The notes: generated by a model not told the origin, from the letters alone. A stretch of DNA of 64,000 nt from Candidatus Nomurabacteria bacterium (GCA_023898465.1 CP060223.1:256001-320000), one strand, 5' to 3'; positions 12,029 to 44,690 are shown, counted from the first letter of the stretch. Made by a program: numbers and translations.

Positions 12029-12101
12029 ATAGTGGGGGGTGCTGGAAAGTTTTTCAGTTCCCCCCACCTCCCACAAAGTCAATTATTTACTTCATAAGTA
12101 T

Positions 12102-12617
12102 ATGAAAAAAATCCAAATAGTCTTTCTCTTATTTTCAAGCATTGTTCTTGCGTCGGTGATTTTTTATTCCGGACATGCTATTTCATATAAAAATACAACC
12201 TACGGATATTCTTTTAGTACAATAAAAAAGTCTAATATTAAAGTTCTTGATCCAGCGCTTGTTCAAGTTTCAATTATAGGAGAAGAGGTTATTGAGGAGA
12301 GTCCAATAATAAACATATATGCTATTAAGTTGGAGCAAGATTCTTTGTCTGCAACCCAAGAACTTGAAACGTGGGTAGGGGAAGATCTTAATGGTTTCTC
12401 TGATATTAATATTCAGAGTACAACGACCGAAACAGAAAAAATAATTAACGTTACTTATACGGGAGGGGGGATGTCTGGAAGTATTAAATACGTCGGATTT
12501 TATGTTTTCAATCAGGAAGAAAAAACAATAATTAAGGTAGTAGCTTCTCAGTATAATGATAATATGGAATTGTTTGAGGCCTACAAAAAAATTCTTTCTT
12601 CCTTTCAGTTAATATAA
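12102..12617 (+). CDS. Hypothetical membrane-anchored/exported protein (AT-rich)
   Basis: The ORF track starts at the GTG at 12039. The ATG at 12102 gives MKKIQIVFLLFSSIVLASVIFYSG, a signal anchor. No family recognised. Confidence 0.55.
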   Translation: MKKIQIVFLLFSSIVLASVIFYSGHAISYKNTTYGYSFSTIKKSNIKVLDPALVQVSIIGEEVIEESPIINIYAIKLEQDSLSATQELETWVGEDLNGFSDINIQSTTTETEKIINVTYTGGGMSGSIKYVGFYVFNQEEKTIIKVVASQYNDNMELFEAYKKILSSFQLI

Positions 12618-13255
12618 TGACCACCACTCATCGTCTCCTCATATTACTCATTGTCGTAGTTGCCGCAGGCTTTCTCTATCTTGGATTAAGATCAGATTCC
12701 TCCGATGTAACAACGACGAACAAAACAGTCAACAAAGATTTCCGTGAACTTGAAATGCTCAGTTCAGCTGGTCACAAGGTGTTTCAATCAGAGAATTATG
12801 ATTTCACCTATACGATTGATCATGGTGTTGACTGGAGCGTTAGCGAGGCTGCAGAGCCGACTTTGCTCACCACTTGGTTTTCTTTACCAAATCCAAATAG
12901 TGAAGAGGAAGAAAGAGATGATATTCCGAATGGGTTTAATACCTTTGAAAAAAATAGTTTTCGACTTGATGTATATCCTAACTCAGGTTCAGTAAGTCCA
13001 AATGGAGAAGCGGAGCTAAAAGATTGGTTAAAAAATGATCTTAATAGTGAGTATATTCCTGGAAGCTTTTTAACCTTATCCATTGCAAGAAACCGTTTAT
13101 TCAAAGTAGTTGATTTTCAGGGGATTGATGTGCGAGAGGCGCATTATTATCTATTTGGCTCTGCATTTGTATATGTCTTTTCAAGCGGTGATTTCACTGA
13201 GCAAGAAATGCGCGAGTTTATTAGCGGTTTTACCTACGAAAGAGCGCCTTTATAA
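12617..13255 (+). CDS. Hypothetical membrane-anchored/exported protein (AT-rich)
   Basis: 212 aa with an N-terminal TM helix (LLILLIVVVAAGFLYLGL). The start is a TAATG overlap with the upstream gene. Confidence 0.55.
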   Translation: MTTTHRLLILLIVVVAAGFLYLGLRSDSSDVTTTNKTVNKDFRELEMLSSAGHKVFQSENYDFTYTIDHGVDWSVSEAAEPTLLTTWFSLPNPNSEEEERDDIPNGFNTFEKNSFRLDVYPNSGSVSPNGEAELKDWLKNDLNSEYIPGSFLTLSIARNRLFKVVDFQGIDVREAHYYLFGSAFVYVFSSGDFTEQEMREFISGFTYERAPL

Positions 13256-15668: not shown

Positions 15669-16682
15669 ATGAATCGTTTTTCTATCTTCATCGCAGTGTT
15701 CGTTCTTATCAGCGCAGTGGTTTATGCTTTCTTTTTTGCTACATTATTTGGGGAAAAGAAAGCTATTGAAGGAGTGCAGGGACCTGCTTTTATGTTTGCA
15801 ACCCTGCCTGACTCAGATGCATCTGCCGCGATAAGCATTTTTGAGATTCCTACAATGTCGAAGCGAAAGGCTGAAGACACATCTTTGCCAATGCATTTTC
15901 TTAAAAAACTAGGAGATCCGAGAGAGTATTTTGATCCCATACTTTCTTCAAGTGGTGCATATTTGGCTTTTAATCGTAATATTGGGGAGCCGAAACAGGA
16001 TAAGACAAATTTAGTAATACTTGCAGCTGACGGAAAAGAAAGGAGCGTGGAGAGCGGCTCTGCTGGAGATATAGGAATAGGAATGCTCACGCCCTTGCAG
16101 TGGAGTGCTGATGAAAAAACGCTCTACGCTTTTTATACACACGCAACTGAAGGTAATATCGTAGGCCTGGTGGCAATTGATGTGGCAACTTTAAGCCAAC
16201 AACGAATTGAAAAAATTGATGATCTACGTGTAAGTAACTACGTCTTTGATGAAGTCGGAAATACCTACGGTTTTGAACCGCACTATCGATTCCGCCCTGA
16301 AGACGAGGCTCAAACAACCTTTTATCGAATTTCTTTGACTAGTGGCGAAACAAAAAGCTTTACACTCCAGCAATCGAGTTTGGACGATCTCTTGACCGTA
16401 GATCCAAGCGGGAGATACCTCGTGTACGCAAACGGAGATGATTTTAATTCTCGTAACATTTGGATGTATGACATGGAAACCGGTGAGGAGCGCGCGTTGA
16501 CTGAAAATGCTGTTGTTAATGAAATTTTGCCCTGGAAAGATGGATATTTGGTATTTCTGGAGGAAAGTGTAAACACCCCCGCAGAAAAAACACTTGTATC
16601 ATACGATGTAAATTCTGGCATTCGCAAAGTTCTTTTAGAAAATGTTACAGGGACGTTCCGGCTTCTTGGTTGGTATCCCTAA
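15669..16682 (+). CDS. Membrane-anchored beta-propeller-like protein (TolB/PD40-like repeats)
   Basis: 337 aa with an N-terminal TM helix. Repeated D-P-S-G-x-Y-L-(V/A)-(Y/F) type segments (LSSSGAYLAFN, DPSGRYLVYANGD...IWMYDMETGEERALT) resemble WD40-like/PD40 blades. Confidence 0.5.
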   Translation: MNRFSIFIAVFVLISAVVYAFFFATLFGEKKAIEGVQGPAFMFATLPDSDASAAISIFEIPTMSKRKAEDTSLPMHFLKKLGDPREYFDPILSSSGAYLAFNRNIGEPKQDKTNLVILAADGKERSVESGSAGDIGIGMLTPLQWSADEKTLYAFYTHATEGNIVGLVAIDVATLSQQRIEKIDDLRVSNYVFDEVGNTYGFEPHYRFRPEDEAQTTFYRISLTSGETKSFTLQQSSLDDLLTVDPSGRYLVYANGDDFNSRNIWMYDMETGEERALTENAVVNEILPWKDGYLVFLEESVNTPAEKTLVSYDVNSGIRKVLLENVTGTFRLLGWYP

Positions 16683-16940
16683 TTTCATATATCAGTTGGG
16701 AGGTTTTTATTAAACCTTGCCCCTCCCCTTAAAAAGTGGTATAGTCATTGAGCTATTCTGAATATCTCAATATTCTAGCAACCGCGTGAAAATGTCAGCA
16801 AAAACAGACATCGCGGAGGGGGAAATCACTCAAGAGCAGCACATACTCTTGTATACTCAAGCGTCCCTAGTAAAAAGGGATGTTTTTTGTGTGCAAAGTA
16901 GCCTCGTAGCTGCCACAAGTTCTGAAAGGAGCGAAGGCGC

Positions 16941-17600
16941 ATGTTAGGTTATCTTTTGCTCATTATATCGGTTGTAGAGTTTTTTATTGGCCTGTACCTT
17001 ATTTTTCGCTATGAAAAAAGCCAGGCAACAACATATTACGGTCTCTTTGCAATAAGTGTTGCGATCTATGTTGCCGCGAACGGTTTCGGATTTACCCGAG
17101 CTTCTGATAACGAGTTTATTTTTGAGCAACTTGCTTGGTTTGGCGGCTTACTTAGCGCCCCATTTATCCTTGGCTTCAGTTATAGCTTTCCTAGCCCTAA
17201 AAAATATCCCACTGAGCTATTTCCGTGGGTAATTTGGCCAGTAGTGTTATTTGGCGCAGGAATTTTTACTTCAAATATTTTCCTGGAGAAAACGTATATT
17301 TATTCCTTTGCCGAAGGCTACACTGCGCCAATCGGTGTCTTTTTCTGGTTCGCCATTGCAGTATTTGCGATGTATTGGATATGGGCAATACGAAACCTGC
17401 TGTATACGAGATTGCACACAAGCGGTTTTTATAGGAATTTTCTTACCATTGTGCTCATAGGGCTTTTTTCATCACTGCTTATTTCAGCAATTTTTGATAT
17501 TTACATTCCCTTAGTTTCAGTCACGCGCTACGGATATATTGGAGCATTATTCTCGTCTATTTGGCTGTTTACTACCGCGTATTTAATGGTGAGGAAGTAA
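16941..17600 (+). CDS. Stand-alone 7TM module, paralog 1 (histidine-kinase N-terminal 7TM-like)
   Basis: 219 aa with about 7 hydrophobic helices. Aligns by eye with the first 230 aa or so of the kinase at 23014. Ends ...TTAYLMVRK* where the kinase reads ...ISYAIIRHR and continues. Confidence 0.8.
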   Translation: MLGYLLLIISVVEFFIGLYLIFRYEKSQATTYYGLFAISVAIYVAANGFGFTRASDNEFIFEQLAWFGGLLSAPFILGFSYSFPSPKKYPTELFPWVIWPVVLFGAGIFTSNIFLEKTYIYSFAEGYTAPIGVFFWFAIAVFAMYWIWAIRNLLYTRLHTSGFYRNFLTIVLIGLFSSLLISAIFDIYIPLVSVTRYGYIGALFSSIWLFTTAYLMVRK

Positions 17601-17601
17601 G

Positions 17602-18261
17602 ATGATTGGATATATATTACTCATTATCTCAGTTGTTGAAGTAATACTCGGTTTTTATTTGATTTTTCGATATGTAAAAAGTCCAGCAACTATATATTAC
17701 GGCCTATTCGCGCTAAGTGTAGCACTCTATGTAGGTGCAAACGGGTATGGTTTTAGTCCGTTTTCAGAAAATGATATATGGCTGGAAATAATTGCCTGGA
17801 TTGGCGGGACCTTTACCGCTCCTTTTATTCTTGGCTTCAGTTACTCATTCCCTTATCCACGTAAGTCCAATAAGGAAATACTGTCTTTAGTTCTTAGTCC
17901 ACTCGTTTTTTTCTTCGTCGTAATACTTTTTTCTAATACTTTTGTAGATCATAATAGTGTTATCAGCTTTGATGAAGGATTTCAAAGACCTGTCGGGGAG
18001 TTACACTGGTTTGTATTATCAGTATTCTTTTTCTATTGGGTTTGGTCTTTTATTGAACTAGTAAAGAGTCGAAAAAAATCCGACGGCTTTAATAAGAATT
18101 TTCTTCTTATTTTAATTATAGGCTTAGTTTTTTCTTTGTTGGTTTCGGTATTTACTAACATCATTCATCCACTTGTCGATGTTTCAAAGTTAGGTTATAT
18201 GGGCCCCTTAGCCTCTTCAATCTGGCTATTTATTACTGGGTACTTGATATTGAGGAAGTAA
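17602..18261 (+). CDS. Stand-alone 7TM module, paralog 2
   Basis: 219 aa, collinear with paralog 1 (LLIISVVE..YLIFRY.KS.AT.YYGLFA, APFILGFSYSFP, SSIWLF). Starts 1 nt after the upstream stop. Confidence 0.8.
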   Translation: MIGYILLIISVVEVILGFYLIFRYVKSPATIYYGLFALSVALYVGANGYGFSPFSENDIWLEIIAWIGGTFTAPFILGFSYSFPYPRKSNKEILSLVLSPLVFFFVVILFSNTFVDHNSVISFDEGFQRPVGELHWFVLSVFFFYWVWSFIELVKSRKKSDGFNKNFLLILIIGLVFSLLVSVFTNIIHPLVDVSKLGYMGPLASSIWLFITGYLILRK

Positions 18262-18932
18262 TGAACACCTTTCATTTAGTTTTACTTTTTACACTTTTCT
18301 TTATTCACGCGACTCTCGCAATATGGATGTTGCGTAGATATGTGCAGACGCTATCCATTCGTTATTACTCAGGCTTTTTATTTGGACTAGCACTTATTGC
18401 ACTATTAAATGGTTTATTGCTGTTATTTGGCGGTCAGGAGAGTCAAACAGTCCTTCATAAGATCGGCTTTATCTCAGGCACCTTCACTTTTGTGATGTTC
18501 TTTATGTTTAGTAAGTACTTTCCAATTTCTACTGCAAGACCAAACTCCCGCGACATTCTTTTTTGGGTAATTCCGATTACATTTTTTATTCCATTCATAC
18601 TTTTTAATCAGCAGTTTATCCAGTCTGTGATTATAGAAAATGGAATAAGTAAGCCTACATTTGGAGTCTGGTATACACCATTTATGTTAGTTTTGGCCAC
18701 CTTTGTTCTGGGGGCTATCTATAATCTCATACAGAAATATAAAATAACCACTGAACTTGAAATTAGGAAGAACATTAGAGACATTACGGCAGTATTTTTC
18801 GTATCAGGACTCCTTGGCTTTTTGTTGGACGTTGTGTTGCCAAGGTTTAATGTTTATACGGCACATTACTTTGCCATTGAATCTTCACTTTTTGTTGCGC
18901 TAACTACTGCAATTATTATTGCAAAGAAGTAA
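18261..18932 (+). CDS. Stand-alone 7TM module, paralog 3 (divergent)
   Basis: 223 aa with the same helix layout. TAATG overlap with paralog 2. Ends ...AIIIAKK*. Confidence 0.75.
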   Translation: MNTFHLVLLFTLFFIHATLAIWMLRRYVQTLSIRYYSGFLFGLALIALLNGLLLLFGGQESQTVLHKIGFISGTFTFVMFFMFSKYFPISTARPNSRDILFWVIPITFFIPFILFNQQFIQSVIIENGISKPTFGVWYTPFMLVLATFVLGAIYNLIQKYKITTELEIRKNIRDITAVFFVSGLLGFLLDVVLPRFNVYTAHYFAIESSLFVALTTAIIIAKK

Positions 18933-18933
18933 G

Positions 18934-19605
18934 ATGAAAGAGTTTCTCATCATTGCAAATTATCTGGTTGGAATAGGGGAGTTGATGCTCGCTGGATATT
19001 TTTGGAAAACAAACAGCGGCAGCGCAATTCGGAAGGTGATGGTGTTGTTGGCGTTTTCGACTGGTATGTGGGTCATTTTTACCGGAACCTTTACCTACCG
19101 CTGGATTTTGCTTGATTACTTTGATCTCGGCATATCATTTGTATATTTCTTTGGAATTTTGTTCCTTACCGCCTTACTTCATTTAGTAATTCTCTTTCCT
19201 CACAAGATTTTCCCGTTTGATAGGCTACATACAGTTTTGTTGTATATTCCAACACTCATATTAGGTTTTGCCGCTTTTACTCCAGCGATAATTAAAGAAA
19301 ATATCACTCCGTCGAGCGGGTATACCACAAGTTATCCCGGACCAGCACATTGGATGTTTAATAGCTATCTTTTTCTCATGTATGCAATGGTGATAATCCT
19401 ACTCATTGTTAAGATCAAGCGTTTTGATGGATTTAGCAGAGATAACGCAAAAACTTTGCTTTGGGGTATTATTTTAGGCGGCCTACCCATCGTTTTCTTA
19501 GATTTGGTTTTGACAACTTTGGGCATCTACCCAAATGCTGCCGTTGCCAGCCTTTTCACAGTTGTCTGGCTTGGGTTTACTACTTACATAATTGTACGGA
19601 AATGA
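18934..19605 (+). CDS. Stand-alone 7TM module, paralog 4
   Basis: The ATG at 18934 lies 1 nt after the paralog 3 stop (ORF track start is 18919). Ends ...TTYIIVRK*. Confidence 0.75.
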   Translation: MKEFLIIANYLVGIGELMLAGYFWKTNSGSAIRKVMVLLAFSTGMWVIFTGTFTYRWILLDYFDLGISFVYFFGILFLTALLHLVILFPHKIFPFDRLHTVLLYIPTLILGFAAFTPAIIKENITPSSGYTTSYPGPAHWMFNSYLFLMYAMVIILLIVKIKRFDGFSRDNAKTLLWGIILGGLPIVFLDLVLTTLGIYPNAAVASLFTVVWLGFTTYIIVRK

Positions 19606-20288
19606 ACGGAGAAATAGTATTTTTTGATTTAATTTTACTTAGCGTTGTTGGATTATTAGAATTAGCCTTTGGGATTTATTTAATAGTCCGTTATGTGAGG
19701 ACAAGTTCGATAGTATTTTTTGCACTTTTCGTTTTCTTTCTTTCTTTGTGGGTGCTTACAAATGCGGCTGCTTTCGTAATACCAATACATAATGTCTTCT
19801 TTGATATTGATTCAAAGTTGAGTTTTGTTTTTGCAATATTACTTTTTCCAGCGCTATACTTATATGTAATTAATTTTCCCATCCCTACAATATTAATAAA
19901 TTGGCGTTTAATACTTTTTGTGTTTACTGCGCCAATACTTCTTAGTACAATGATTTTAGGGTCGGGAACGGTTGTATTTGGATTTGATAAATTGATAGAG
20001 AATCAGCCAACTATATTTGGAGAAGCTTTTTGGGCCTATTCTTTTTATATGTTGTTCATGTATGCAATTATTTTATTTGAATTAATAAGGCAGATTAATA
20101 AGTCCAAGGGTTCTCACAGATGGTATGCACAAATTTTATTTTTTGCTGTTTTCATTTCTGGCGCAATAGGGCTATTATTTAATCTTGTTCTGCCTTCGAT
20201 GTTCGATATTAGAATTGCTTATTGGATAGCCCCATCTAGTTCAATTATTTGGCTTGCTCTTGTTTGGTGGGCGACGCAGAGGAAATAA
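19602..20288 (+). CDS. Stand-alone 7TM module, paralog 5
   Basis: ATGA overlap with paralog 4. The ORF track start at 19461 runs inside paralog 4. Ends ...SSSIIWLALVWWATQRK*. Confidence 0.75.
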   Translation: MNGEIVFFDLILLSVVGLLELAFGIYLIVRYVRTSSIVFFALFVFFLSLWVLTNAAAFVIPIHNVFFDIDSKLSFVFAILLFPALYLYVINFPIPTILINWRLILFVFTAPILLSTMILGSGTVVFGFDKLIENQPTIFGEAFWAYSFYMLFMYAIILFELIRQINKSKGSHRWYAQILFFAVFISGAIGLLFNLVLPSMFDIRIAYWIAPSSSIIWLALVWWATQRK

Positions 20289-20290
20289 TT

Positions 20291-20959
20291 ATGGATTATG
20301 GTGTATACTTATTATTAGTTATTGCGGGCCTAGAACTTTGGTTGACAATATACATATTTACTCGCTACCAAAGAACAAAAGCTATTTTTTTCTTTGGACT
20401 CTTTACTGCTTGTGTGACTGGATGGGTGCTAACTAATTCTATTCCGCTTCTTTTTTCCTATTCAAGTTGGCAATCTGATTTTTTGCAACGCCTCTCGTTT
20501 TCTTTTGCTGCATTTATTTTTCCTTTTCTTTATTATTATATTCTTTTACATCCATTTCCAAGCATTGATATCAACAAGCGATTCATATTATTCACATCCC
20601 TCCCGGCCTTCTTTGTTTCTATTGCCACTCTCTTTGATAAAAACTTTGTTATAGGATTCTATGATACCTCAGTAAGGGCAACAATATACGGCGACTCTTT
20701 TTGGATGTATGCGGTAGTTATGTTGCTATTTGCAATTCTTATTCCTGTGGAAATAATTTTAAAAAGAAGAAGACTGGATGGATATTATCGCTACCAATTC
20801 AAATTATTATTCAGCGCCTATTTGTTTTCAGCGGCAGTAGGATTACTAATTAATTTAATATTGCCATATTTTTTCGACTTAAAAATTAACTATTGGCTTG
20901 GGCCCGCGTCATCGATTATTTGGGTGAGTATGGTTTGGTGGGTTATTAATAGAAGGTAA
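20291..20959 (+). CDS. Stand-alone 7TM module, paralog 6
   Basis: The ATG lies 2 nt after the paralog 5 stop. Closest to paralog 5 (..ASSIIWVSMVWWVINRR*). Confidence 0.75.
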   Translation: MDYGVYLLLVIAGLELWLTIYIFTRYQRTKAIFFFGLFTACVTGWVLTNSIPLLFSYSSWQSDFLQRLSFSFAAFIFPFLYYYILLHPFPSIDINKRFILFTSLPAFFVSIATLFDKNFVIGFYDTSVRATIYGDSFWMYAVVMLLFAILIPVEIILKRRRLDGYYRYQFKLLFSAYLFSAAVGLLINLILPYFFDLKINYWLGPASSIIWVSMVWWVINRR

Positions 20960-20981
20960 TGTTTAATTGCGATTTTCAAAA

Positions 20982-21641
20982 ATGACAATAGGACATGTAG
21001 TTGAAGAATTTAAAAGTCGGTATATTAAAAGACAACTAGATCATAATTTTATTGTTTTAGAGACTCAAAATAACAACCAACTAAATTTATCATATAGATT
21101 AAGATACGAAGTATATTGTCTAGAATGTAAATATTTAGACGTGAATAATTATCCCAATAGGTCTGAAAAGGATGAGTATGATGATTGTTCAATACATTTC
21201 ATCGCAATAAATAAAAAGACAAAAAATGTTGTTGGCACAATTCGACTTATTAAACGCACTAATAGGAATTTGCCAATAGAGCATGATTTTGGAATTTCTC
21301 TGAATGGATCAATTAGTTCTAAAAAAGTTGTGGAGATTTCTAGACTAGCGGTTGATAAAAAATTTAGGAAGTCGAGTTTAAAGCATCCAAGTATTATGTT
21401 AGGTTTATTAAAAGCATGCTATAGATACGCCGAAGAAAATGGAATTGCAATGTTTGTAGCGGCAATAGATCAAAATGTATATAATATGTTAAAAAAGTTT
21501 CGTTTTTCATTTAATTTATTAGGGGAACCAAAACATTATATGGGTTCAATCTCAGTACCCGTGTTAATTGATATCGAAAAAGAATCGCAGTGGTTAAAAA
21601 TAGTAAATCCTGGACTATGGACATTTCTTTCAAGCAATTAG
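20982..21641 (+). CDS. GNAT-fold N-acyl amino acid / acyl-homoserine-lactone-synthase-like acyltransferase (FeeM / PEP-CTERM-associated acyltransferase-like)
   Basis: LSYRLRYEVYCLECKYLD, IHFIAI...VVGTIRLI, VVEISRLAVDKKFR and MFVAAID follow the pattern I recall for the LuxI-related Acetyltransf_5/N-acyl amino acid synthase family. The ORF track starts at the TTG at 20967; the ATG at 20982 is preferred. Confidence 0.55.
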   Translation: MTIGHVVEEFKSRYIKRQLDHNFIVLETQNNNQLNLSYRLRYEVYCLECKYLDVNNYPNRSEKDEYDDCSIHFIAINKKTKNVVGTIRLIKRTNRNLPIEHDFGISLNGSISSKKVVEISRLAVDKKFRKSSLKHPSIMLGLLKACYRYAEENGIAMFVAAIDQNVYNMLKKFRFSFNLLGEPKHYMGSISVPVLIDIEKESQWLKIVNPGLWTFLSSN

Positions 21642-22276
21642 CTCATAAAATTGTATTATTCTATTTAAGACGGGCTAGCCACAAAAAATACCTAACATTT
21701 AGCTTTAGCGATCTTATTATACTCTGTCCCCCAAACGTGTTCCCGCCTAATTCGTTTACCACTGACCTAATGGCTAAGTGGCTAGTAAACGAAGAGATGG
21801 AAGGTAAACAGGTTTTAGAGATGGGTTGTGGAAGTGGATACATTTCGATTATTGCCGCACGAAAAGGGGCAAAAGTAATTGCAAGCGACATCAGCCCTAT
21901 CGCGGTTGATGCCGCAAAAATCAATACCATAATAAATAAGATAAAAAATGTCGAATGTTATTGCTCGGACTTATTTTCTAACTTAGAAGGAAAGTTTGAT
22001 TTAATTCTCTTCAACGCACCTTTTTTTCATGGAGAACCCACTTCTTTATTAGATAACAATTGGATGAGTAAGGATGGGGAGGTGGTCAGTAAATTTTTTA
22101 AAGACGCAAGAGAATATATTAATCCAATGGGGAAGGTAGTTATTACTAGTTCGACTCTAGTTAATCAAGATGCTCTGAAAATATTAATTAAAGAAAGCGG
22201 ATTTAATATTGAAAACGTGAAAACAAAAAATATTATTATTGAAAAATTTTTCTTGTATGAATGTAGAGCTTTTTAA
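21617..22276 (+). CDS. Class I SAM-dependent methyltransferase (HemK/PrmC-like amino-methyltransferase pattern)
   Basis: Motif I is VLEMGCGSGYISI, the acidic loop is ASDIS, and motif IV is FNAPFF (an NPPY-like variant). The start is ambiguous (GTG at 21590 or ATG at 21617) and overlaps the upstream gene. Confidence 0.7.
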   Translation: MDISFKQLAHKIVLFYLRRASHKKYLTFSFSDLIILCPPNVFPPNSFTTDLMAKWLVNEEMEGKQVLEMGCGSGYISIIAARKGAKVIASDISPIAVDAAKINTIINKIKNVECYCSDLFSNLEGKFDLILFNAPFFHGEPTSLLDNNWMSKDGEVVSKFFKDAREYINPMGKVVITSSTLVNQDALKILIKESGFNIENVKTKNIIIEKFFLYECRAF

Positions 22277-23021
22277 TAGAAATCAACCATTTATAACTAA
22301 AAAAGAACAAAAAATTCTCACAAAACAGAAAGTTTGTTTTATTGGATGTGGTCTTGCAAGTCAAGCCGCACTCCTTATTGCCAGGACAGGTATTGGAAAA
22401 ATAGTACTTTGTGATGGAGACAAGGTCGAGTTGAGTAATCTTAACAGGCAAGCATTTGACATTGGTGATATTGGAGAAAACAAAGCAGAAAGCTTAATGA
22501 GAAAGATATTAAGCATCAATTCAAATATTGAAGTGGAGCAGTATCCGGTTTTTTTAAAAAAATCGATTATTTCAAATGTAATAAAAGATTCAGATATTGT
22601 AGTGAGCACAGTTGATGCGGGTCCTTTATATTTTGAAATTCAGGAATATATTAATAAAAAAGGCATTATGGGAATATTCCCCATGAATATTGCCTTTGGA
22701 TCACTCGTATTCGTATCAAAAAATGGAAAGGGTGATTTTAAATCGTTATTTGGGGAGAAATTACCTGAAAATAATTCTGAATTTTTTTATCAACTTTACA
22801 ATAAACTTAAACAAAATGTACCAAGCTATTTATCTCCTCATATTGAAATCTTATTAAGTGGATTTAAAACAAACAGTCCAATTCCACAGCTAGGATTAAC
22901 GACTTTACTTACCGCATCTTTGATTACTGAGATAATACTGGCTGGGAACAGGGCTGAGCAATTATTGTTAACTCCAAGATTCTATTATTTTGATATTCGT
23001 GAATTCGTTCGAAATGGATAA
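22257..23021 (+). CDS. ThiF/MoeB/HesA-family E1-like adenylyltransferase
   Basis: KVCFIGCGLASQAALLIARTGIGKIVLCDGDKVELSNLNRQ carries the canonical ThiF nucleotide-binding signature. The protein is about 254 aa with no rhodanese or CxxC tail. It overlaps both neighbours. Confidence 0.75.
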   Translation: MNVELFNRNQPFITKKEQKILTKQKVCFIGCGLASQAALLIARTGIGKIVLCDGDKVELSNLNRQAFDIGDIGENKAESLMRKILSINSNIEVEQYPVFLKKSIISNVIKDSDIVVSTVDAGPLYFEIQEYINKKGIMGIFPMNIAFGSLVFVSKNGKGDFKSLFGEKLPENNSEFFYQLYNKLKQNVPSYLSPHIEILLSGFKTNSPIPQLGLTTLLTASLITEIILAGNRAEQLLLTPRFYYFDIREFVRNG

Positions 23022-25785
23022 ATTGCTAATCCCACAAAATTTAGCACTTATTATATTGCTCTTCGGATATTTAAGTCTGATAATTCTTCTTTTGAGACGC
23101 GAGAACACAAGTAGTAGATTATTTGGTGCTACCGTTATTACTCTCTCTCTTTGGATATTATCAATTTTACTTTTAAATATCAGCTCCTCAAAAGAAGAAA
23201 TTTTATTCTTTTCGCGATCGTCATTTATCGGGCCAATTATTCTCATACCAACATTCCTTCTTTTTTCTTGGTATTTTCCGAAAAAAACTATACATCTAAG
23301 GAAAAGTATTATTATTGTCGTTTCTTTAACGGCATGCTTCTTTTTAATTGCGACGTTTACGCCGTATGTAATTCAAGATGTCACAATAAAAGTAGGTGAA
23401 GGAGTCAGTCTAACCTATCAACTTGGAACACTATATTTTTTCCAATTTATTTTTTTAGCATTCTCATTACTTTATTCTTTTTTTATTCTTTATAAAAAAT
23501 ATAAAAAATCAAAAGGCCTAGAAAAATTACAAATTAGATATCTTTTTCTTGGCACCGTTATTACTGCAGTATTGACCTTGAGTACTAACGTAATTTTACC
23601 AATTTTTAATTTTTCATCTCTTGCTGGATTTGGCCCTCTTAGTACTCTATTTCTCTTATTTTTTATTTCATATGCCATCATCCGCCACCGCCTCCTCGAC
23701 ATCCGTCTTGTTATCACGCGTTCCTTAATTTATTTTTTCCTTATCCTGTTCGTCGCAGGATCATTTACTGGAATTACCTTACTCGCAAAGTTATTATTTG
23801 AAGAATTTGTTGGTGAAATAACCGCTACAATACTTGTTTCTCTCATCATCGTTATTGGTTTCGAGCCATTGAAGCGATGGGTCTCTCGTTCTACTGACTC
23901 GGTTTTTTATAAGGCAAAAATTGACTACGCTGATGTGTTGCGGGAAATCAGCGAAATTATTAACCGTGAAATTGTCCTGGATCCGCTCGTCACCTCCATC
24001 AGCGCCACGCTTGAGAGTAGGCTCAAGCTCAAGCACGCGGGCATTGCATTGAAAAGCGCCAAGGGGGATTTTGTTGAATACATAAACCACGATCACTTTG
24101 ATCCCAAAACCTTTTCCAGCCGATCCGGTATGATCGGATTCTTACGTTTCACATCTCGTATCACCATTTTAGAATCGCTCGAGCGCAAAATTCAGGACAC
24201 GAGCGAAGGGGACGAATTAAAAGAGTTGAAGCGATCGCGCGAGGAAATGGAAACGAACCACATTGCCTTAGCTGCTCCGATTGTGGCGCAAGGCAAATTC
24301 AACGCAGTCCTCATCCTGGGGCCGAAACTTTCCGGTGATAGCTTCTCGACCGAAGAGTTGAAGATGATTGAAACGTTGACTCCGCAGATCGGATCAGCGA
24401 TTGAGAAATCCATGCTCTTCGAAGAGGTGAAGAACTTCTCCAGTCAATTAAAGGTGAAAGTTGATGAGGCGACAAAGGAGTTGAAAGAGCGCAATCGTTT
24501 CCTTGGCGCTTTGCAGGATATCACGAGCACCATTACGCACTCTCTTGATTACAAAAAAGTAGGACAGGACATTGTGGACGGAGTAGCCAAGAAGCTCGGT
24601 TACATCGGTGCCGTGCTCCTGCTCTATGATCCAAAGACTGGCCAGTCATGGGCTGAGGCAATTACGCAAACGCCGGTTACTCGCGCGGCAATGAAATTAC
24701 TGCCCAAGCCGGTGAACGAATACCATGGGCACGTGGATGAGAATTCCATGACCGACCAAGTTATTTTGACTGGTGAAATGCGCGAAAGTGATTCACTAGC
24801 TGAATTCTTAGCACCGGCCGTGCCTAAAGCTTTTTGTTTCGCCATGCAGAAGTTGATTCGCGCAAAGTATATTGTGGCAGTGCCAATCTATGCCGAGGGT
24901 GAAATTCTCGGTGCCTTGGTTTTTGTGCTCGGGAAGAAGAAAGAGGAGATCAGTAGTCAGGAGCGGGCTATGATGATCGCTTTAGGTGACCAGGCCGGAA
25001 TCGTGCTGCACAATATTAAACTCTTTGATCGCATCCAGGATACGAATAAGCAGTTGGAGCAGGCGAATGAACACTTGAAGCAGCTTGATCAAGCTAAGTC
25101 GGAATTCGTCTCCATTGCCTCGCACCAATTACGCACGCCGATGACTGGCATTATGGGCTATCTTTCCATGATGGTGCAGGGGGATTTCGGTAAAATGGAG
25201 CCGGAGCACACCAAACTGCTGACTGAATTGTTGAGTGAGAGTCAGCGCATGATTCGTCTCATCAACCTCTTCTTGAACGTCTCAAAGATTGAGTCAGGTA
25301 AGATGACGATTAACAAGCAGCCGACGCAGATTAAGGATCTCATTGACCAACAGATTAAGGATCAGAAAAAGCCAGCCGAGGATAAAGGATTGGTGCTGAA
25401 AGTGGAAGTTGATAAAGAGCTGCCGATAATTGAAGCTGACGGTGATAAGCTCATGAACGTGGTGCAGAACCTGATTGATAACGCTATCAAATATACAGAG
25501 CGGGGAAGCGTGACTGTTCGCGCCTTTCAGACCGATGGCCATATCCAGGTAGAAATTCAAGACACTGGCGTTGGTATTAAGCGCGAAGATGTGCATGAAC
25601 TCTTTGGTAAGTTTGTGCGCGGGTCTGGCATTGCGCAGATCAATCCTGATGGCTCCGGTCTCGGACTCTTTATTGCCAAGTCAATTGTGGAAATGCACGG
25701 CGGTAAGATTTGGGTAGAATCAGAAGGTGAAGGGAAAGGTACTAAATTCGCATTCACGATACCAATTACACAGCCGAAAAAATGA
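23014..25785 (+). CDS. Sensor histidine kinase: N-terminal 7TM module + GAF-like regions + HisKA + HATPase_c
   Basis: About 230 aa of 7TM region, then long soluble GAF-like regions. H-box FVSIASHQLRTPMT, N-box NLIDNAIKYT, G-boxes DTGVGI and GSGLGL. The ATG at 23014 overlaps the ThiF stop by 8 nt. Confidence 0.9.
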   Translation: MDKLLIPQNLALIILLFGYLSLIILLLRRENTSSRLFGATVITLSLWILSILLLNISSSKEEILFFSRSSFIGPIILIPTFLLFSWYFPKKTIHLRKSIIIVVSLTACFFLIATFTPYVIQDVTIKVGEGVSLTYQLGTLYFFQFIFLAFSLLYSFFILYKKYKKSKGLEKLQIRYLFLGTVITAVLTLSTNVILPIFNFSSLAGFGPLSTLFLLFFISYAIIRHRLLDIRLVITRSLIYFFLILFVAGSFTGITLLAKLLFEEFVGEITATILVSLIIVIGFEPLKRWVSRSTDSVFYKAKIDYADVLREISEIINREIVLDPLVTSISATLESRLKLKHAGIALKSAKGDFVEYINHDHFDPKTFSSRSGMIGFLRFTSRITILESLERKIQDTSEGDELKELKRSREEMETNHIALAAPIVAQGKFNAVLILGPKLSGDSFSTEELKMIETLTPQIGSAIEKSMLFEEVKNFSSQLKVKVDEATKELKERNRFLGALQDITSTITHSLDYKKVGQDIVDGVAKKLGYIGAVLLLYDPKTGQSWAEAITQTPVTRAAMKLLPKPVNEYHGHVDENSMTDQVILTGEMRESDSLAEFLAPAVPKAFCFAMQKLIRAKYIVAVPIYAEGEILGALVFVLGKKKEEISSQERAMMIALGDQAGIVLHNIKLFDRIQDTNKQLEQANEHLKQLDQAKSEFVSIASHQLRTPMTGIMGYLSMMVQGDFGKMEPEHTKLLTELLSESQRMIRLINLFLNVSKIESGKMTINKQPTQIKDLIDQQIKDQKKPAEDKGLVLKVEVDKELPIIEADGDKLMNVVQNLIDNAIKYTERGSVTVRAFQTDGHIQVEIQDTGVGIKREDVHELFGKFVRGSGIAQINPDGSGLGLFIAKSIVEMHGGKIWVESEGEGKGTKFAFTIPITQPKK

Positions 25786-26216
25786 AACAGGTAAGGGGGA
25801 AACAACCAAAACGCATCCTACTTGTCGAGGACGAGCCGCTCTTAGCAACGATGTATATGTTGGCGTTGCAGCAACGAGTAAAGGCTGAGGTGTACGGGGC
25901 TAAGACACGCGAAGAAGCGGAGCGCATTATTGAGCGTGTGAAGCCGGATTTAGTGCTGCTTGATCTCATGATTCCCTCGATTACCATCCAAGACACGGAG
26001 CAGGATTTTCATCATCCAGTAGGGCTGCAATTCTTAGCCCAAATTCGGAAGAGTCCAAAGACGCGTTCAATCAAGGTAATGATTCTCTCCAACCTTGATG
26101 CGGATGAGCAACGCAAGCGGGCCATTGATTTAGGTGCCGAGGATTACCTATTAAAAGCCAGTCTGCAGCCGCACGCGATTGTGGAAAAGGTAAAGCATAG
26201 TTTAGGGATAAAATAA
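25782..26216 (+). CDS. Stand-alone response-regulator receiver (CheY-like) protein
   Basis: ILLVEDEP, DLVLLDLMIP and a lysine in ..LLKAS. There is no output domain. ATGA overlap with the kinase stop. Confidence 0.85.
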   Translation: MKQVRGKQPKRILLVEDEPLLATMYMLALQQRVKAEVYGAKTREEAERIIERVKPDLVLLDLMIPSITIQDTEQDFHHPVGLQFLAQIRKSPKTRSIKVMILSNLDADEQRKRAIDLGAEDYLLKASLQPHAIVEKVKHSLGIK

Positions 26217-42600: not shown

Positions 42601-43194
42601 AGCGAAATTGCGGTCAGCCAGATTTCAGGAAAAAGATATCGCATTGATGAGCAACTTAAATCCGCAGTTTCAGGAAAACTAGGCCATCGACAAGAATTTG
42701 TAGCAAGTAGTATTTCATCAGCCCCACTTCTTGAAGAAGAAGCCATTCGTTCGGTCACTGGAAAATTTTGTGCACCAATGGAAGCGAGGCCCTGCACTTG
42801 GAGTGGTCGAAAGTGTCACCCCGAAGACCTTAGGACTTGCGAGTTGACCGGAGTCCAAATTCATTCAGAGTACGTAACGCTCGAACCACCAATTCGTTTA
42901 GAAACCCTAAATAATCTTTTGAATGGCACGAGGAGCAAATCTGACAAATTGGAAGTATGGCCTTCACTTTCAAATAGCGTTACAGCTTTATTAAAAGCAA
43001 AACGTTGTAAAATTGAAACAGCAGAAGTTTCACCTAGTGACGATATTTTGGCCGCTTCTATAGAGCTTCGAACTTTTCTAGGCCTGCGCGTGAGTCACAT
43101 TGGCGTACTTTATTCAATAAAGGATGGATCCGTAGTCGGGCGTGTTGCTAGAGGCAAGCGTGGTGATAAGGGCTGGAATCAAACTAAGAACTAA
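39667..43194 (+). CDS. SNF2-family helicase/translocase with a long C-terminal extension containing 15-residue repeats
   Basis: Motif I LADDVGLGKT, motif II LILDEAHKLRN, motif III LMLTATPIQN, helicase-C STEAGSEGVNLQ and QRIGRIQRL. About 650 further aa follow. AT-rich relative to the flanks. Confidence 0.85.
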   Translation: MDSAPLTLQTKTLQRSSDLNNYRLYRAALEWELIDPIVIEDRDDMHSESSWRDRLEPYHHQVTNLITFCRRLPVTLLADDVGLGKTISAGLVLSELISRGRISKILIVCPKILRDQWKEELEIKFRIPSTIVTGRELITAKPPEEPGAVITTYNTARLYLDRIDQNGFEILILDEAHKLRNLYGVDPTPQVAIKFRKALADRMFKYVLMLTATPIQNRLWDLYSLVDLLTVARGHENPFGTPGIFARKFIADSRTQARQLNPEMRDEFRSIIYGYMSRVRRGDAKLHFPERVVQLHKVDPTPEELQLIGVVGKSIQQLNALTQIVILQALVSSPEALIKMLEGMAKKGTVPREVLANVKESAKEIQITTKLKGLGALVEKLRKEQPNTWRVVVFTRWRETQTTIETFLEKQGVKCGLINGDSSKRNQETIQRFKKDLPDINVIISTEAGSEGVNLQAANVLVNYDLPWNPMIVEQRIGRIQRLASNYANVSIFNIVLQNTFEEYIVGRLMEKLQMASHAIGDIEALLEASGIDEGEENGSSGFEEKIRQLVVASLAGKDVEQATRKAEQSISEAKTELDHEEKNINALLGGMSDSLDSGPRCPKLPQTTKSMDVRDFTTAALMSLGAELHPKKDGLLVSQLAGKKELIRFDNNTLSSEEESVLYAPGTSTFERLVHKVANVGKHIVEDLDKNPQQQIEKVSRQWVESFGGDFENVTVEDVSRCFAGVAIIRARSTVAHDSYERLIEVSCAPTEHFSFVTRTGLEPIGDYIENPTSVGALSEKLIEKASQDSSILEFCRFYLERRSQEIASAGNDERKKKKLEDEFTPRLEFSLVGLEGKVHRIVKNQVSYRIEREGQYKSTLMITPSSGQVDMPGMGQCMKTGKTVPSDCLAKCEISGLIVLRHFLDQSEISNRLALPEHIVLCTLSNKRVLADEAIKSDVTGKLVAKKFLKTSSLSGKFAEPQFINTCEFTKTEVLESEIAVSQISGKRYRIDEQLKSAVSGKLGHRQEFVASSISSAPLLEEEAIRSVTGKFCAPMEARPCTWSGRKCHPEDLRTCELTGVQIHSEYVTLEPPIRLETLNNLLNGTRSKSDKLEVWPSLSNSVTALLKAKRCKIETAEVSPSDDILAASIELRTFLGLRVSHIGVLYSIKDGSVVGRVARGKRGDKGWNQTKN

Positions 43195-43195
43195 T

Positions 43196-44686: not shown

Positions 44687-44690
44687 ACCT

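What the first reader, a model, noticed from the sequence alone, without database searches (positions are those of the whole stretch)
23660..23720. Compositional breakpoint falls inside the kinase gene exactly at the 7TM/cytoplasmic junction
The first 690 nt or so of the kinase gene (the 7TM part) are as AT-rich as the upstream array. From about the codons for YAIIRHRLLD (23671-23700) onward, the gene and the following receiver gene have backbone-like composition. The kinase therefore looks chimeric. A resident GAF-HisKA-HATPase body appears to have acquired, or exchanged, its sensor module from the AT-rich block. That raises the possibility that the upstream free modules are a reservoir for such swaps. 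However, I see no conserved nucleotide repeat at the module ends that would drive site-specific exchange.
Basis: partly seen in the sequence, partly recalled or inferred. Interest (0 to 1): 0.55.

Follow-up and report, generated by a model that had tools for sequence, protein, structure and literature searches.

The report
Swappable sensor cassette boundary inside kinase
The jump in base composition inside this Nomurabacteria histidine-kinase gene is real and marks the right edge of an exchangeable cassette, made of small-molecule enzyme genes plus the kinase's membrane sensor, that related bacteria swap as a unit much like quorum-sensing "pherotype" loci.

Summary
GC3 is 0.23 in the 7TM-coding part (23014-23664) and 0.56 in the body. 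The expectation from amino-acid content is 0.48 (z = -8). The best single break is nt 23674. Other polytopic membrane genes are not depressed, so TM codon bias is excluded.

The pattern is family-wide. 34 of 41 orthologous Patescibacteria kinases show it, and the 1-3 enzyme genes just upstream share the low GC3.

Comparative data show cassette replacement. Kinase pairs 95-97% identical in the catalytic part have 7TM domains only 28-30% identical and non-homologous upstream enzymes. Other pairs share the 7TM domain (62-89%) and the enzymes (51-76%) but have more divergent bodies. Shared cassettes have 2-3-fold lower dS than the body of the same gene. Enzymes co-vary with the sensor (7/7 versus 0/14 pairs).

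The enzymes include LuxI/FeeM-type synthases (here 20982-21641), CqsA-like acyltransferases and methyltransferases. The most likely reading is an agr/comQXP-like signal-synthase/sensor specificity cassette. That function is inferred, not shown.

The "free 7TM modules as reservoir" is not: they are at most 36% identical to any kinase sensor, vertically inherited, and have dN/dS of 0.09.

The parts
16941..20959 (+). Array of six free ~220-aa 7TM ORFs (16941-17600, 17602-18261, 18261-18932, 18934-19605, 19605-20288, 20291-20959). This is the conserved left flank of the variable cassette, not part of it.
   Evidence: Three of the six reach Pfam HisKA_7TM, and all six match a family HMM. GC3 is 0.23-0.40. 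They end at T-x-Y-I-I-x-R-K-stop, the first half of the kinase junction motif. Orthologues in relatives have dN/dS 0.09 and backbone-like dS.
20982..21641 (+). LuxI/FeeM-type N-acyl synthase homologue (GNAT). First gene of the AT-rich variable cassette.
   Evidence: Pfam FeeM 58 bits, Autoind_synth 47 bits, both above cut-off. NCBIfam TIGR03694 139.8 bits, above cut-off 111.95. A profile of 9 such cassette GNATs hits solved autoinducer synthases: 5w8c 3e-10, 6wn0 3e-9, LasI 1.7e-5, FeeM 1.4e-3. GC3 0.19, z = -8.5.
21617..22276 (+). SAM-dependent methyltransferase (start uncertain; the ORF begins at 21590). Cassette gene.
   Evidence: Pfam MTS 1.3e-19. GC3 0.30. It has no counterpart in the closest relatives L001, L087 and L002.
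22239..23021 (+). ThiF/E1-type adenylyltransferase. Cassette gene. Its stop overlaps the kinase ATG by 8 nt.
   Evidence: Pfam ThiF 3.8e-29. GC3 0.22, z = -8.2. The overlap is read directly from the sequence.
23014..23664 (+). Kinase HisKA_7TM sensor domain: the variable, AT-rich 5' part of the kinase gene.
   Evidence: Pfam HisKA_7TM 6.7e-16. GC3 0.226 against 0.48 expected. It is 28-31% identical to the closest orthologues, whose HK part is 80-83% identical. The maximum is 37% identity among 1.84 billion representatives.
23665..23754 (+). Conserved juxtamembrane motif (ISYAIIRHRLLDIRLVITRSLIY...). Site of the best single compositional break (nt 23674) and of the jump in conservation.
   Evidence: GC3 0.60. 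It is a family consensus motif with near-invariant residues. Identity to L001 and L087 rises to 0.90-0.93 here. L083/L084 nucleotide homology resumes at the equivalent codon.
23755..23844 (+). TM8-TM9 hairpin. A second, short variable and AT-rich patch.
   Evidence: GC3 0.17 (5 of 30 codons), p = 1.8e-5 against the body. The family mean GC3 is 0.31-0.33 here. It is swapped independently in L013/L029: 50-57% identical while the 7TM is 97% and the body 93-100%.
23845..25785 (+). Conserved kinase body: linker, GAF, GAF, HisKA, HATPase_c. Right-hand homologous anchor.
   Evidence: Pfam GAF x2, HisKA, HATPase_c. GC3 0.563. The HK part is 80-83% identical to L001, L002 and P0002. Solved-structure matches cover only residues 645-920.
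25782..26216 (+). Stand-alone receiver-domain response regulator, overlapping the kinase stop.
   Evidence: Pfam Response_reg 3.8e-16. GC3 0.54. It is conserved downstream of the kinase in L001, L002, L083, L084 and L087.

Best explanation
The compositional break marks the right-hand boundary of a horizontally exchangeable, AT-rich allelic cassette that sits in a conserved two-component locus of Patescibacteria.

In this genome the cassette is about 20.97-23.66 kb, with a short outlier at 23.755-23.845 kb. It carries a LuxI/FeeM-type N-acyl synthase, a SAM methyltransferase, a ThiF-type adenylating enzyme and the kinase's own 7TM membrane sensor. The kinase body (GAF-GAF-HisKA-HATPase) and the receiver gene on the right are conserved flanks. 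So is the array of free 7TM genes on the left.

Shown:
- Related genomes carry unrelated cassettes between the same flanks.
- Distant genomes share cassettes.
- The enzyme genes and the sensor domain travel together.
- The cassette is AT-rich at synonymous sites in nearly every member.

Inferred:
- Replacement happens by homologous recombination, with crossovers in the conserved flanks. One crossover falls at or just after the conserved YAIIRHRLLD motif.
- The enzymes make or modify a small, probably lipid-like, molecule that the co-inherited membrane sensor detects. Each cassette would then be a signal/receptor specificity type, working like the agrB-agrD-agrC(sensor) or comQ-comX-comP(5') pherotype regions.
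- The low GC3 reflects membership of a shared, mobile accessory gene pool rather than the resident genome. The exact cause of the AT bias is unresolved.
For: 1. The break is real. See the observation check.

2. The pattern is family-wide.
- In 41 full-length orthologues the mean GC3 is 0.25 for the sensor, 0.48 for the body, 0.26 for the adjacent enzymes and 0.34 for the free modules.
- 34 of 41 have sensor GC3 below body GC3 minus 0.1. Wilcoxon p = 1e-11.
- The slope of sensor GC3 on body GC3 is 0.30.
- The positional profile steps up at the same place.

3. Replacement is seen between close relatives.
- L083/L084: backbone proteins are 83-91% identical, free modules 85-88%, and the kinase HK part 95%. 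The genes between array and kinase are non-homologous (methyltransferase plus FeeM-GNAT versus two unknown ORFs). The sensor is ~30% identical.
- blastn homology stops at the end of the last free module and resumes at kinase codon ~223.
- The same holds for L019/L085 and L026/L034.

4. The reverse incongruence also occurs.
- L041/L086: sensor 89% and four enzymes 57-76%, against HK 72% and GAF1 60%.
- L007/L013: sensor 62% and three enzymes 51-63%, against GAF1 36% and no shared flanks.

5. The cassette is younger than the body of the same gene.
- L013/L029: dS is 0.40 for the sensor and 0.29 for an enzyme, against 0.89 for the body.
- L026/L033: dS is 0.28 against 0.85.
- Shared sensors are under purifying selection, dN/dS 0.03-0.12.

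6. The enzymes co-vary with the sensor, not with the body. 7 of 7 pairs with sensor identity of at least 45% share enzyme homologues at 40% or more. 0 of 14 pairs with HK of at least 80% but different sensors do.

7. The enzyme types suit signal synthesis.
- Of 72 cassette ORFs, 13 are SAM methyltransferases, 9 are FeeM/LuxI-like, 6 are class I/II aminotransferase-fold (one tested, L002, matches BioF/Kbl/CqsA-type enzymes including CAI-1 autoinducer synthase at 5e-30), 3 are PlsC acyltransferases and 3 are ThiF.
- The GNAT profile matches solved autoinducer synthases over nearly its full length.

8. Independent literature has noted LuxI and CqsA homologues next to sensory kinases in CPR genomes as candidate complete quorum-sensing systems (PMC7567580). 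The analogous hypervariable regions of agr and comQXP are documented (PMC10482373; PMC6334282).
Against: - No close relative of this particular genome is available, so the swap at this locus is inferred from the family.
- No ligand, secretion step or peptide precursor is identified. The enzymes could act on envelope lipids rather than on a diffusible signal.
- Many cassette ORFs have no recognisable function.
- The free modules and the gene at 15669-16682 also have lowered GC3 although they are inherited vertically. Recent transfer therefore cannot be the whole explanation of AT-richness.
- Within the cytoplasmic body there is a weak general correlation between conservation and GC3 (rho 0.25).
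- The right boundary is not at one fixed codon across the family. Change points cluster at the junction, at about +40-70 codons and at about +200-270 codons.
- The dS comparison could be biased by skewed composition, although pS of 0.23-0.31 against 0.51 is far from saturation.
Confidence: 0.6

Rival explanations
1. One reading: the free 7TM modules upstream are a reservoir, and the kinase acquires its sensor from them by cassette shuffling or gene conversion, as in pilE/pilS-type systems.
For: The free modules belong to the same domain family as the sensor. They lie in tandem just upstream and stop exactly at the first half of the junction motif. Module number varies between relatives, with indels between L083 and L084.
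Against: No attached sensor matches any free module above ~36% identity, in 86 attached against 74 free. In the window the figure is 24-30%. The free modules are intact and translationally coupled ORFs, with dN/dS 0.09 and backbone-like dS. There are no shared nucleotide tracts or flanking repeats. The segment that actually differs between close relatives starts after the last free module.
Confidence: 0.05
2. There is no exchange. The sensor simply evolves very fast in place, under relaxed or diversifying selection, and drifts toward the AT-rich mutational equilibrium.
For: The sensor is the least conserved part of the family, with column conservation 0.16-0.33. Even 'close' pairs have body dS of 0.9-1.6, so much time has passed. 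There is a weak positive correlation between conservation and GC3 in the body.
Against: The adjacent enzyme genes are replaced by non-homologous genes, which point mutation cannot do. Sensors can be more similar than bodies: 89% against 72%, and 62% against 36% for GAF1. Shared cassettes have lower dS than the body. Shared sensors are under strong purifying selection, dN/dS 0.03-0.12. Equally variable cytoplasmic stretches (conservation 0.15-0.26) keep GC3 at ~0.53.
Confidence: 0.08
3. The cassette is exchanged as described, but it is an envelope-modification or self-recognition locus under phage- or host-driven diversifying selection. The enzymes would alter a membrane or surface lipid and the 7TM domain would monitor it. 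It would not be a diffusible-signal communication system.
For: The cassettes include PlsC-type acyltransferases, transglutaminase-like proteins and methyltransferases. The window's GNAT passes the NCBIfam model named for exosortase/EPS-associated acyltransferases. The L083 sensor plus GAF is distantly similar to PrsK, an exopolysaccharide-system kinase (44 bits, far below cut-off). Patescibacteria are thought to be epibionts, for which surface variation matters (general knowledge).
Against: The best structural-sequence matches of the GNATs are true autoinducer synthases. CqsA-type synthase homologues occupy the same slot. No glycosyltransferase or exosortase genes were seen in the cassettes examined.
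Confidence: 0.2
4. The low GC3 is a by-product of coding for transmembrane helices or of translational tuning for membrane insertion.
For: The AT-rich parts of the kinase are its membrane parts, including the TM8-9 relapse.
Against: The expectation conditioned on amino acids is 0.48 against 0.21 observed. Other polytopic proteins in the window and in other loci are not depressed. The soluble cassette enzymes are equally or more AT-rich, at 0.19-0.30.
Confidence: 0.02
5. Assembly or binning chimera joining two organisms inside a conserved kinase gene.
For: The window comes from a metagenome-assembled genome.
Against: The contig is 1.08 Mb. The reading frame is continuous. The same pattern recurs in more than 30 independent assemblies from different studies.
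Confidence: 0.01

Closest known systems
agr locus hypervariable region of staphylococci (agrB-agrD-agrC sensor half)
   Same: It is a polymorphic block covering the signal-producing genes and the membrane-sensor half of the histidine kinase, with the catalytic half and the response regulator conserved (PMC10482373). Here the variable block likewise ends inside the kinase at the sensor/cytoplasm junction, and producer genes co-vary with the sensor.
   Different: No protein is homologous. Here there is a HisKA_7TM sensor, two GAF domains, and LuxI/FeeM, methyltransferase and ThiF enzymes. No peptide precursor gene is evident. The receiver has no DNA-binding domain. Cassettes differ in enzyme class, not just in allele. 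Exchange is seen across deep lineages. Specificity has not been tested.
comQXPA pherotype locus of Bacillus subtilis
   Same: [quoted passage not shown] The gene order is the same: modifying enzyme, then kinase with a variable 5' sensor, then regulator.
   Different: The components are unrelated. The signal in Bacillus is an isoprenylated peptide. Nothing there corresponds to the free 7TM array.
LuxI- and CqsA-homologue/sensory-kinase gene pairs reported in CPR genomes (Bernard et al. 2020, PMC7567580)
   Same: The phylum-level group and gene adjacency are the same. That paper reports 18 LuxI homologues and 51 CqsA homologues next to sensory kinases and proposes them as complete quorum-sensing systems. 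These are probably the same loci.
   Different: In the passages retrieved, that survey does not describe the cassette polymorphism, the breakpoint inside the kinase, the compositional signature, the alternation of synthase classes at one orthologous kinase, or the free 7TM array. Its supplementary tables were not checked.
PrsK/PrsR two-component system with the exosortase-associated acyltransferase family (TIGR03694)
   Same: The window's GNAT scores above the curated cut-off of TIGR03694. PrsK is a multi-TM histidine kinase with a sensor of unknown specificity (PMC1569441). The L083 orthologue aligns weakly to PrsK over the membrane plus GAF region.
   Different: The kinase match is far below the cut-off (44 against 300 bits) and is absent for the window's kinase. 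The receiver here is not a sigma-54 activator. No exosortase or PEP-CTERM genes were seen.
Low-GC hypervariable loci bounded by conserved genes (for example O-antigen/capsule clusters)
   Same: An AT-rich, horizontally exchanged block with recombination end-points in conserved flanking sequence (general knowledge, not tested here).
   Different: Here one end-point lies inside a gene at a domain boundary, and the content is a signalling module.

Membership tests
HisKA_7TM-type sensor histidine kinase (Pfam PF16927 + GAF + HisKA + HATPase_c) | N-terminal 7TM domain matching PF16927 above the gathering score | tested here: met
   59.2 bits against a cut-off of 28.6, residues 20-238 of the 931-aa ORF.
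HisKA_7TM-type sensor histidine kinase (Pfam PF16927 + GAF + HisKA + HATPase_c) | Phospho-acceptor H-box and catalytic ATPase domain | tested here: met
   HisKA 58 bits and HATPase_c 101 bits. The SIASHQLRTP histidine is invariant in 35 orthologues. The catalytic core matches solved kinases at 1e-37.
LuxI/FeeM superfamily N-acyl synthase (window 20982-21641) | Sequence membership above curated thresholds | tested here: met
   Pfam FeeM 58 (cut-off 27) and Autoind_synth 47.3 (cut-off 24). NCBIfam TIGR03694 139.8 (cut-off 111.95). The equivalog AHL-synthase models fall far below cut-off (44 against 250), so it is not a canonical TraI/LuxI orthologue.
LuxI/FeeM superfamily N-acyl synthase (window 20982-21641) | Similarity to solved autoinducer synthases over the catalytic fold | tested here: met
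   A profile of 9 cassette GNATs hits 5w8c at 2.9e-10 over positions 36-197, 6wn0 at 3e-9, LasI at 1.7e-5 and FeeM at 1.4e-3. The invariant columns R41, D64, D67, R88, E118 and R121 resemble the conserved charged residues of LuxI enzymes. That resemblance is from memory and was not tested.
LuxI/FeeM superfamily N-acyl synthase (window 20982-21641) | Makes an N-acyl homoserine lactone or N-acyl amino acid | not testable with these tools
   Needs expression and mass spectrometry. The single-sequence structure model was unusable (pLDDT 36).
Pherotype-type polymorphic quorum-sensing locus (agr / comQXPA kind) | Producer genes, sensor kinase and regulator adjacent and co-oriented | tested here: met
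   Window 20982-26216, all on the + strand with overlapping stops and starts. The arrangement is conserved in L001, L083 and L087.
Pherotype-type polymorphic quorum-sensing locus (agr / comQXPA kind) | Hypervariable block spans the producer genes and the sensor half of the kinase, while the catalytic half and regulator are conserved | tested here: met
   Shown in the relatives L083/L084, L019/L085 and L026/L034. For the window it is shown only against 57%-identical relatives.
Pherotype-type polymorphic quorum-sensing locus (agr / comQXPA kind) | Producer and sensor alleles co-vary | tested here: met
   7 of 7 against 0 of 14 pairs.
Pherotype-type polymorphic quorum-sensing locus (agr / comQXPA kind) | Secreted signal with allele-specific activation of the cognate receptor | not testable with these tools
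No precursor-peptide gene is evident in the tightly packed cassette.
Pherotype-type polymorphic quorum-sensing locus (agr / comQXPA kind) | Homology to AgrB/AgrC or ComQ/ComP | tested here: not met
   Pfam and NCBIfam scans give no such families. The resemblance is in organisation and evolution only.
   24-30% amino-acid identity in the window and at most ~36% family-wide. There are no nucleotide repeats linking modules to the kinase.
   They are full ORFs with their own start codons and are translationally coupled. Purifying selection gives dN/dS 0.09. Expression itself was not tested.

The most novel reading that the evidence does not exclude
One orthologous Patescibacteria two-component locus acts as a docking site for interchangeable communication 'languages'. 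Whole cassettes move between lineages through a shared AT-rich allele pool. Each cassette pairs a different class of signal synthase (LuxI/FeeM-like, CqsA-like, methyltransferase-based and unknown types) with its matched 7TM sensor. The conserved array of kinase-less 7TM proteins next to it would serve as co-receptors or decoys that bind non-self signals or heteromerise with the kinase sensor.
Probability: 0.3. Interest if true: 0.8.

Novelty: new variant of a known kind. Interest (0 to 1): 0.66.

Why it matters
Patescibacteria (CPR) are uncultured, reduced-genome bacteria, and almost nothing is known experimentally about how they sense their surroundings.

Earlier work listed LuxI- and CqsA-like genes beside kinases in CPR genomes (PMC7567580). 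The present analysis adds that these genes and the kinase's membrane sensor form a single exchangeable unit. That unit has a sharp boundary inside the kinase gene, a family-wide compositional signature, and co-inheritance of enzyme and sensor.

If the signal/receptor reading is right, CPR bacteria have pherotype-like specificity groups. That would bear on kin or host discrimination in epibiotic life, and it gives a concrete pairing of enzymes and sensors to test in heterologous systems.

More generally, an intragenic GC3 step can be used to find domain-level allelic replacement in metagenome-assembled genomes.

Tried and rejected
- A word-index protein search with the sensor domain alone returned nothing, not even the source protein. 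This was a method failure on a TM-rich query. It was replaced by the exhaustive HMMER search, which found no relative above 37% identity.
- The last word-index search, with the GNAT, found only itself. No alignment was therefore available for structure prediction. The single-sequence AlphaFold model had pLDDT 36 and was discarded without a fold search.
- Scans of IMG/VR viral contigs for the kinase family and the GNAT found no relatives. There is thus no evidence that phages carry the cassette.
- Tortosa et al. 2001 (PMC94899) is not held. Whether the comQXP variable region is also compositionally deviant could not be checked.
- A repeat search over 16800-24000 found only paralogue similarity between modules 1 and 2 and short chance matches. 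This argues against site-specific recombination. A diversity-generating retroelement would also be expected to leave a template/variable repeat pair, and none was seen.
- TM codon bias, an assembly chimera and in-place hyper-divergence were considered and rejected (see the rival explanations).
- A first change-point run using the longer ORF and a 30-codon minimum segment put the optimum at codon 284. Re-running from the annotated start put it at nt 23674. The likelihood surface is bimodal, so both values are reported.
- PrsK membership was tested and not met.


Full report
**What is there**

The window is from a Candidatus Nomurabacteria (Patescibacteria/CPR) metagenome-assembled genome on a 1.08-Mb contig. 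The + strand between 16.9 and 26.2 kb carries these genes:
- six free ~220-aa 7TM ORFs of the HisKA_7TM family (16941-20959);
- a LuxI/FeeM-type GNAT (20982-21641);
- a SAM methyltransferase (about 21617-22276);
- a ThiF-type adenylyltransferase (22239-23021);
- a 923-aa histidine kinase (23014-25785) with HisKA_7TM, two further TM helices, two GAF domains, HisKA and HATPase_c;
- a stand-alone receiver (25782-26216).

Adjacent genes overlap or abut. For example, the ThiF stop overlaps the kinase ATG by 8 nt.

**Checking the observation**

GC3 is 0.226 in 23014-23664 and 0.563 in 23845-25782 (Fisher p = 1.6e-18).

With backbone codon usage applied to the actual amino-acid sequence, the expected GC3 of the 7TM part is 0.48. 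The observed value is 0.21, z = -8.

Backbone polytopic membrane genes in the window have GC3 of 0.43-0.53: a SecY-like gene, a P-type ATPase and others. Polytopic ORFs in related loci average 0.52 against a background of 0.51. The three soluble enzyme genes upstream are as AT-rich as the sensor, at 0.19-0.30. TM codon bias is therefore excluded.

A near-equal optimum lies near 23840, and the support interval is 23662-23973. LLR is 35.9 against a permutation maximum of 11.3.

The fine structure is as follows:

| Segment | What it is | GC3 |
|---|---|---|
| 23014-23664 | 7TM sensor | 0.226 |
| 23665-23754 | conserved motif ISYAIIRHRLLDIRLVITR | 0.60 |
| 23755-23844 | TM8-TM9 hairpin | 0.17 |
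| 23845-25782 | kinase body | 0.563 |

BIC marginally prefers the two-segment model, so the TM8-9 dip in this one gene is suggestive rather than required.

**The pattern belongs to the family, not to this genome**

The full-length architecture is conserved in many Patescibacteria at 45-57% identity.

The two nearest contexts fetched showed the same gene order: free 7TM ORFs, then one to three enzyme genes, then the kinase, then the receiver. They also showed the same intragenic GC3 step.

A scan of one genome per species returned 80 further loci. Across the 41 full-length orthologues analysed:
- mean GC3 is 0.25 for the sensor, 0.48 for the body, 0.26 for the adjacent enzymes and 0.34 for the free modules;
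- 34 of 41 have sensor GC3 below body GC3 minus 0.1;
- the only two reversals are in genomes already at GC3 of about 0.2.

Loci without any free modules show the step too.

A positional profile over 24 loci gives GC3 of 0.24-0.32 up to the motif, 0.39 at the motif, 0.31-0.33 over TM8-9, and a rise to 0.53 within about 40 codons. Cytoplasmic stretches that are equally poorly conserved keep GC3 at about 0.53. Low conservation alone is therefore not the cause.

**Evidence for exchange**

Sensor identity is decoupled from body identity. It stays at 0.21-0.28 while HK identity ranges from 0.44 to 0.97. Spearman is 0.23, against 0.89 for GAF1 versus HK.

The extreme pairs are:
- L019/P0023: HK 0.97, GAF1 0.98, sensor 0.28;
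- P0018/P0030 (the L083 and L084 loci): HK 0.95, sensor 0.30.

L083 and L084 are syntenic, with backbone proteins 83-91% identical.
- blastn homology (about 84%) ends at the stop codon of the last free module.
- It resumes at kinase codon ~223.
- The intervening genes are non-homologous: a methyltransferase plus a FeeM-GNAT in one, two unknown ORFs in the other.
- Two of three free modules are 85-88% identical.

Identity profiles show full recovery only after TM9, at about codon 270-285.

The reverse case also exists.
- L041/L086 share the sensor at 89% and four enzymes at 57-76%, but have HK 72% and GAF1 60%.
- L007/L013 share the sensor at 62% and three enzymes at 51-63%, but have GAF1 36% and no common flanks.

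Where a cassette is shared, its dS is two- to three-fold lower than that of the kinase body in the same pair: 0.40 and 0.29 against 0.89, and 0.28 against 0.85. The shared sensor is under purifying selection, dN/dS 0.03-0.12.

Enzyme genes follow the sensor, not the body. 7 of 7 pairs with similar sensors share enzyme homologues, against 0 of 14 pairs with similar bodies but different sensors.

In L013/L029 the TM8-9 hairpin alone differs, at 50-57% identity. The gene is therefore a finer mosaic.

The four kinases of the window's own clade (window, L001, L087, L002) have HK 80-83% identical. They carry four different cassettes:
- window: GNAT plus methyltransferase plus ThiF;
- L001: GNAT plus ThiF;
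- L087: GNAT plus a 570-aa protein;
- L002: an aminotransferase-fold enzyme.

**The free modules are not the donors**

Across 86 attached sensors and 74 free modules, attached sensors find their best matches among other attached sensors (40-97%). They never match free modules above about 36%. The three higher values are 460-aa 7TM proteins that were classed inconsistently.

In the window the sensor is 24-30% identical to the free modules, while modules 1 and 2 are 53% identical to each other.

The free modules have dN/dS of 0.09 and dS like the backbone.

No repeats link them to the kinase.

They end at T-x-Y-I-I-x-R-K-stop, the first half of the kinase motif, so they are precise stand-alone versions of the domain. 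Their role is unknown. Co-receptor or decoy functions are speculation.

**What the cassette probably does**

A Pfam census of 72 cassette ORFs gives:
- 13 SAM methyltransferases;
- 9 FeeM/LuxI-like GNATs;
- 6 class I/II aminotransferase-fold enzymes;
- 4 transglutaminase-like proteins;
- 3 PlsC-type acyltransferases;
- 3 ThiF proteins;
- many unknowns.

A profile of the GNATs matches solved autoinducer synthases nearly end to end: 5w8c at 2.9e-10, 4-coumaroyl-HSL synthase at 3e-9, LasI at 1.7e-5 and FeeM at 1.4e-3. The window's GNAT also passes the NCBIfam model TIGR03694.

The L002 enzyme belongs to the BioF/Kbl family, which includes the CAI-1 autoinducer synthase CqsA (5e-30; NF005526 at 1.4e-57, below cut-off).

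A published survey had already noted 18 LuxI and 51 CqsA homologues beside sensory kinases in CPR genomes and proposed complete quorum-sensing systems (PMC7567580).

Taken together, the organisation and evolution resemble two known cases:
- the agr hypervariable region, agrB-agrD-agrC (PMC10482373);
- the comQ-comX-5'comP polymorphism (PMC6334282).

None of the proteins is homologous to those systems. No ligand has been shown. The signalling function is therefore inferred.

**Why AT-rich?**

Sensor GC3 follows host GC3 only weakly, with a slope of 0.30. This fits a shared allele pool that is only partly ameliorated.

The vertically inherited free modules and the gene at 15669-16682 are also moderately AT-rich. 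A second factor must therefore contribute, and it remains unresolved. Candidates are weaker selection for GC-ending codons, or less recombination-linked GC bias in divergent segments.

No viral carriage was found.

**Limits**

This genome has no close relative in the collections searched. The swap at this exact locus is inferred from the family.

Gene calls in the loci are ORF-based. dS estimates use Nei-Gojobori with Jukes-Cantor correction on compositionally skewed sequence.

**Verdict**

The 'chimeric kinase' interpretation is supported. More precisely, the break is the boundary of an exchangeable enzyme-plus-sensor cassette.

The 'free modules as reservoir' idea is not supported.

It is a new variant of a known kind of system, the polymorphic signal/sensor locus, found in a phylum where none has been characterised.

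Noticed in passing
window 39667-45392 (+): A second AT-rich island (GC3 0.33-0.35 against ~0.5). It encodes an SNF2/helicase protein of 1175 aa, a DUF2779 protein of 514 aa and an unknown 233-aa protein. It looks like an accessory or defence-type insertion.
   Followed up: partly
window 12039-13255 (+): Two adjacent ORFs of 192 and 212 aa have GC3 of 0.29-0.33 and no Pfam match. They form a small AT-rich patch in otherwise backbone-like sequence.
   Followed up: partly
window 24490-25060 (kinase GAF2, ORF codons ~501-690): GAF2 is also phylogenetically incongruent. It is 39-44% identical to the relatives with the closest catalytic domain (HK 80-83%). It is 54-58% identical to P0006, P0015 and P0017, whose HK is only 59-63% identical. 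There is no compositional signal here.
   Followed up: partly
L013 and L029, kinase codons 226-285: The TM8-TM9 hairpin is only 50-57% identical between two kinases whose 7TM domains are 97% and whose bodies are 93-100% identical. The hairpin is a separately exchangeable or hypervariable element.
   Followed up: partly
window 15669-16682 (+): A 337-aa protein with an N-terminal TM helix and no Pfam match lies just upstream of the 7TM array and has lowered GC3 (0.34-0.36). In L083 and L084 the gene in the same position also has GC3 of ~0.36 against a backbone of 0.62-0.72, yet it is 83% conserved between them.
   Followed up: partly
database proteins P0121-P0128, P0127, P0163: Proteins of 1000-1560 aa contain two to four tandem HisKA_7TM-like stretches. 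These are fused versions of what appears here as separate free modules.
   Followed up: no
window 16941-18261: Free modules 1 and 2 are recent paralogues, 53% identical at the amino-acid level with 74-79% nucleotide tracts. Modules 5 and 6 are 39% identical. This indicates lineage-specific tandem duplication within the array.
   Followed up: partly
L002 8453-9667; also L016, L022, L034: At the slot occupied by the LuxI-like GNAT in the window, some relatives carry a BioF/Kbl/CqsA-family PLP-dependent acyltransferase instead. The class of putative synthase, not just its allele, changes between cassettes.
   Followed up: partly
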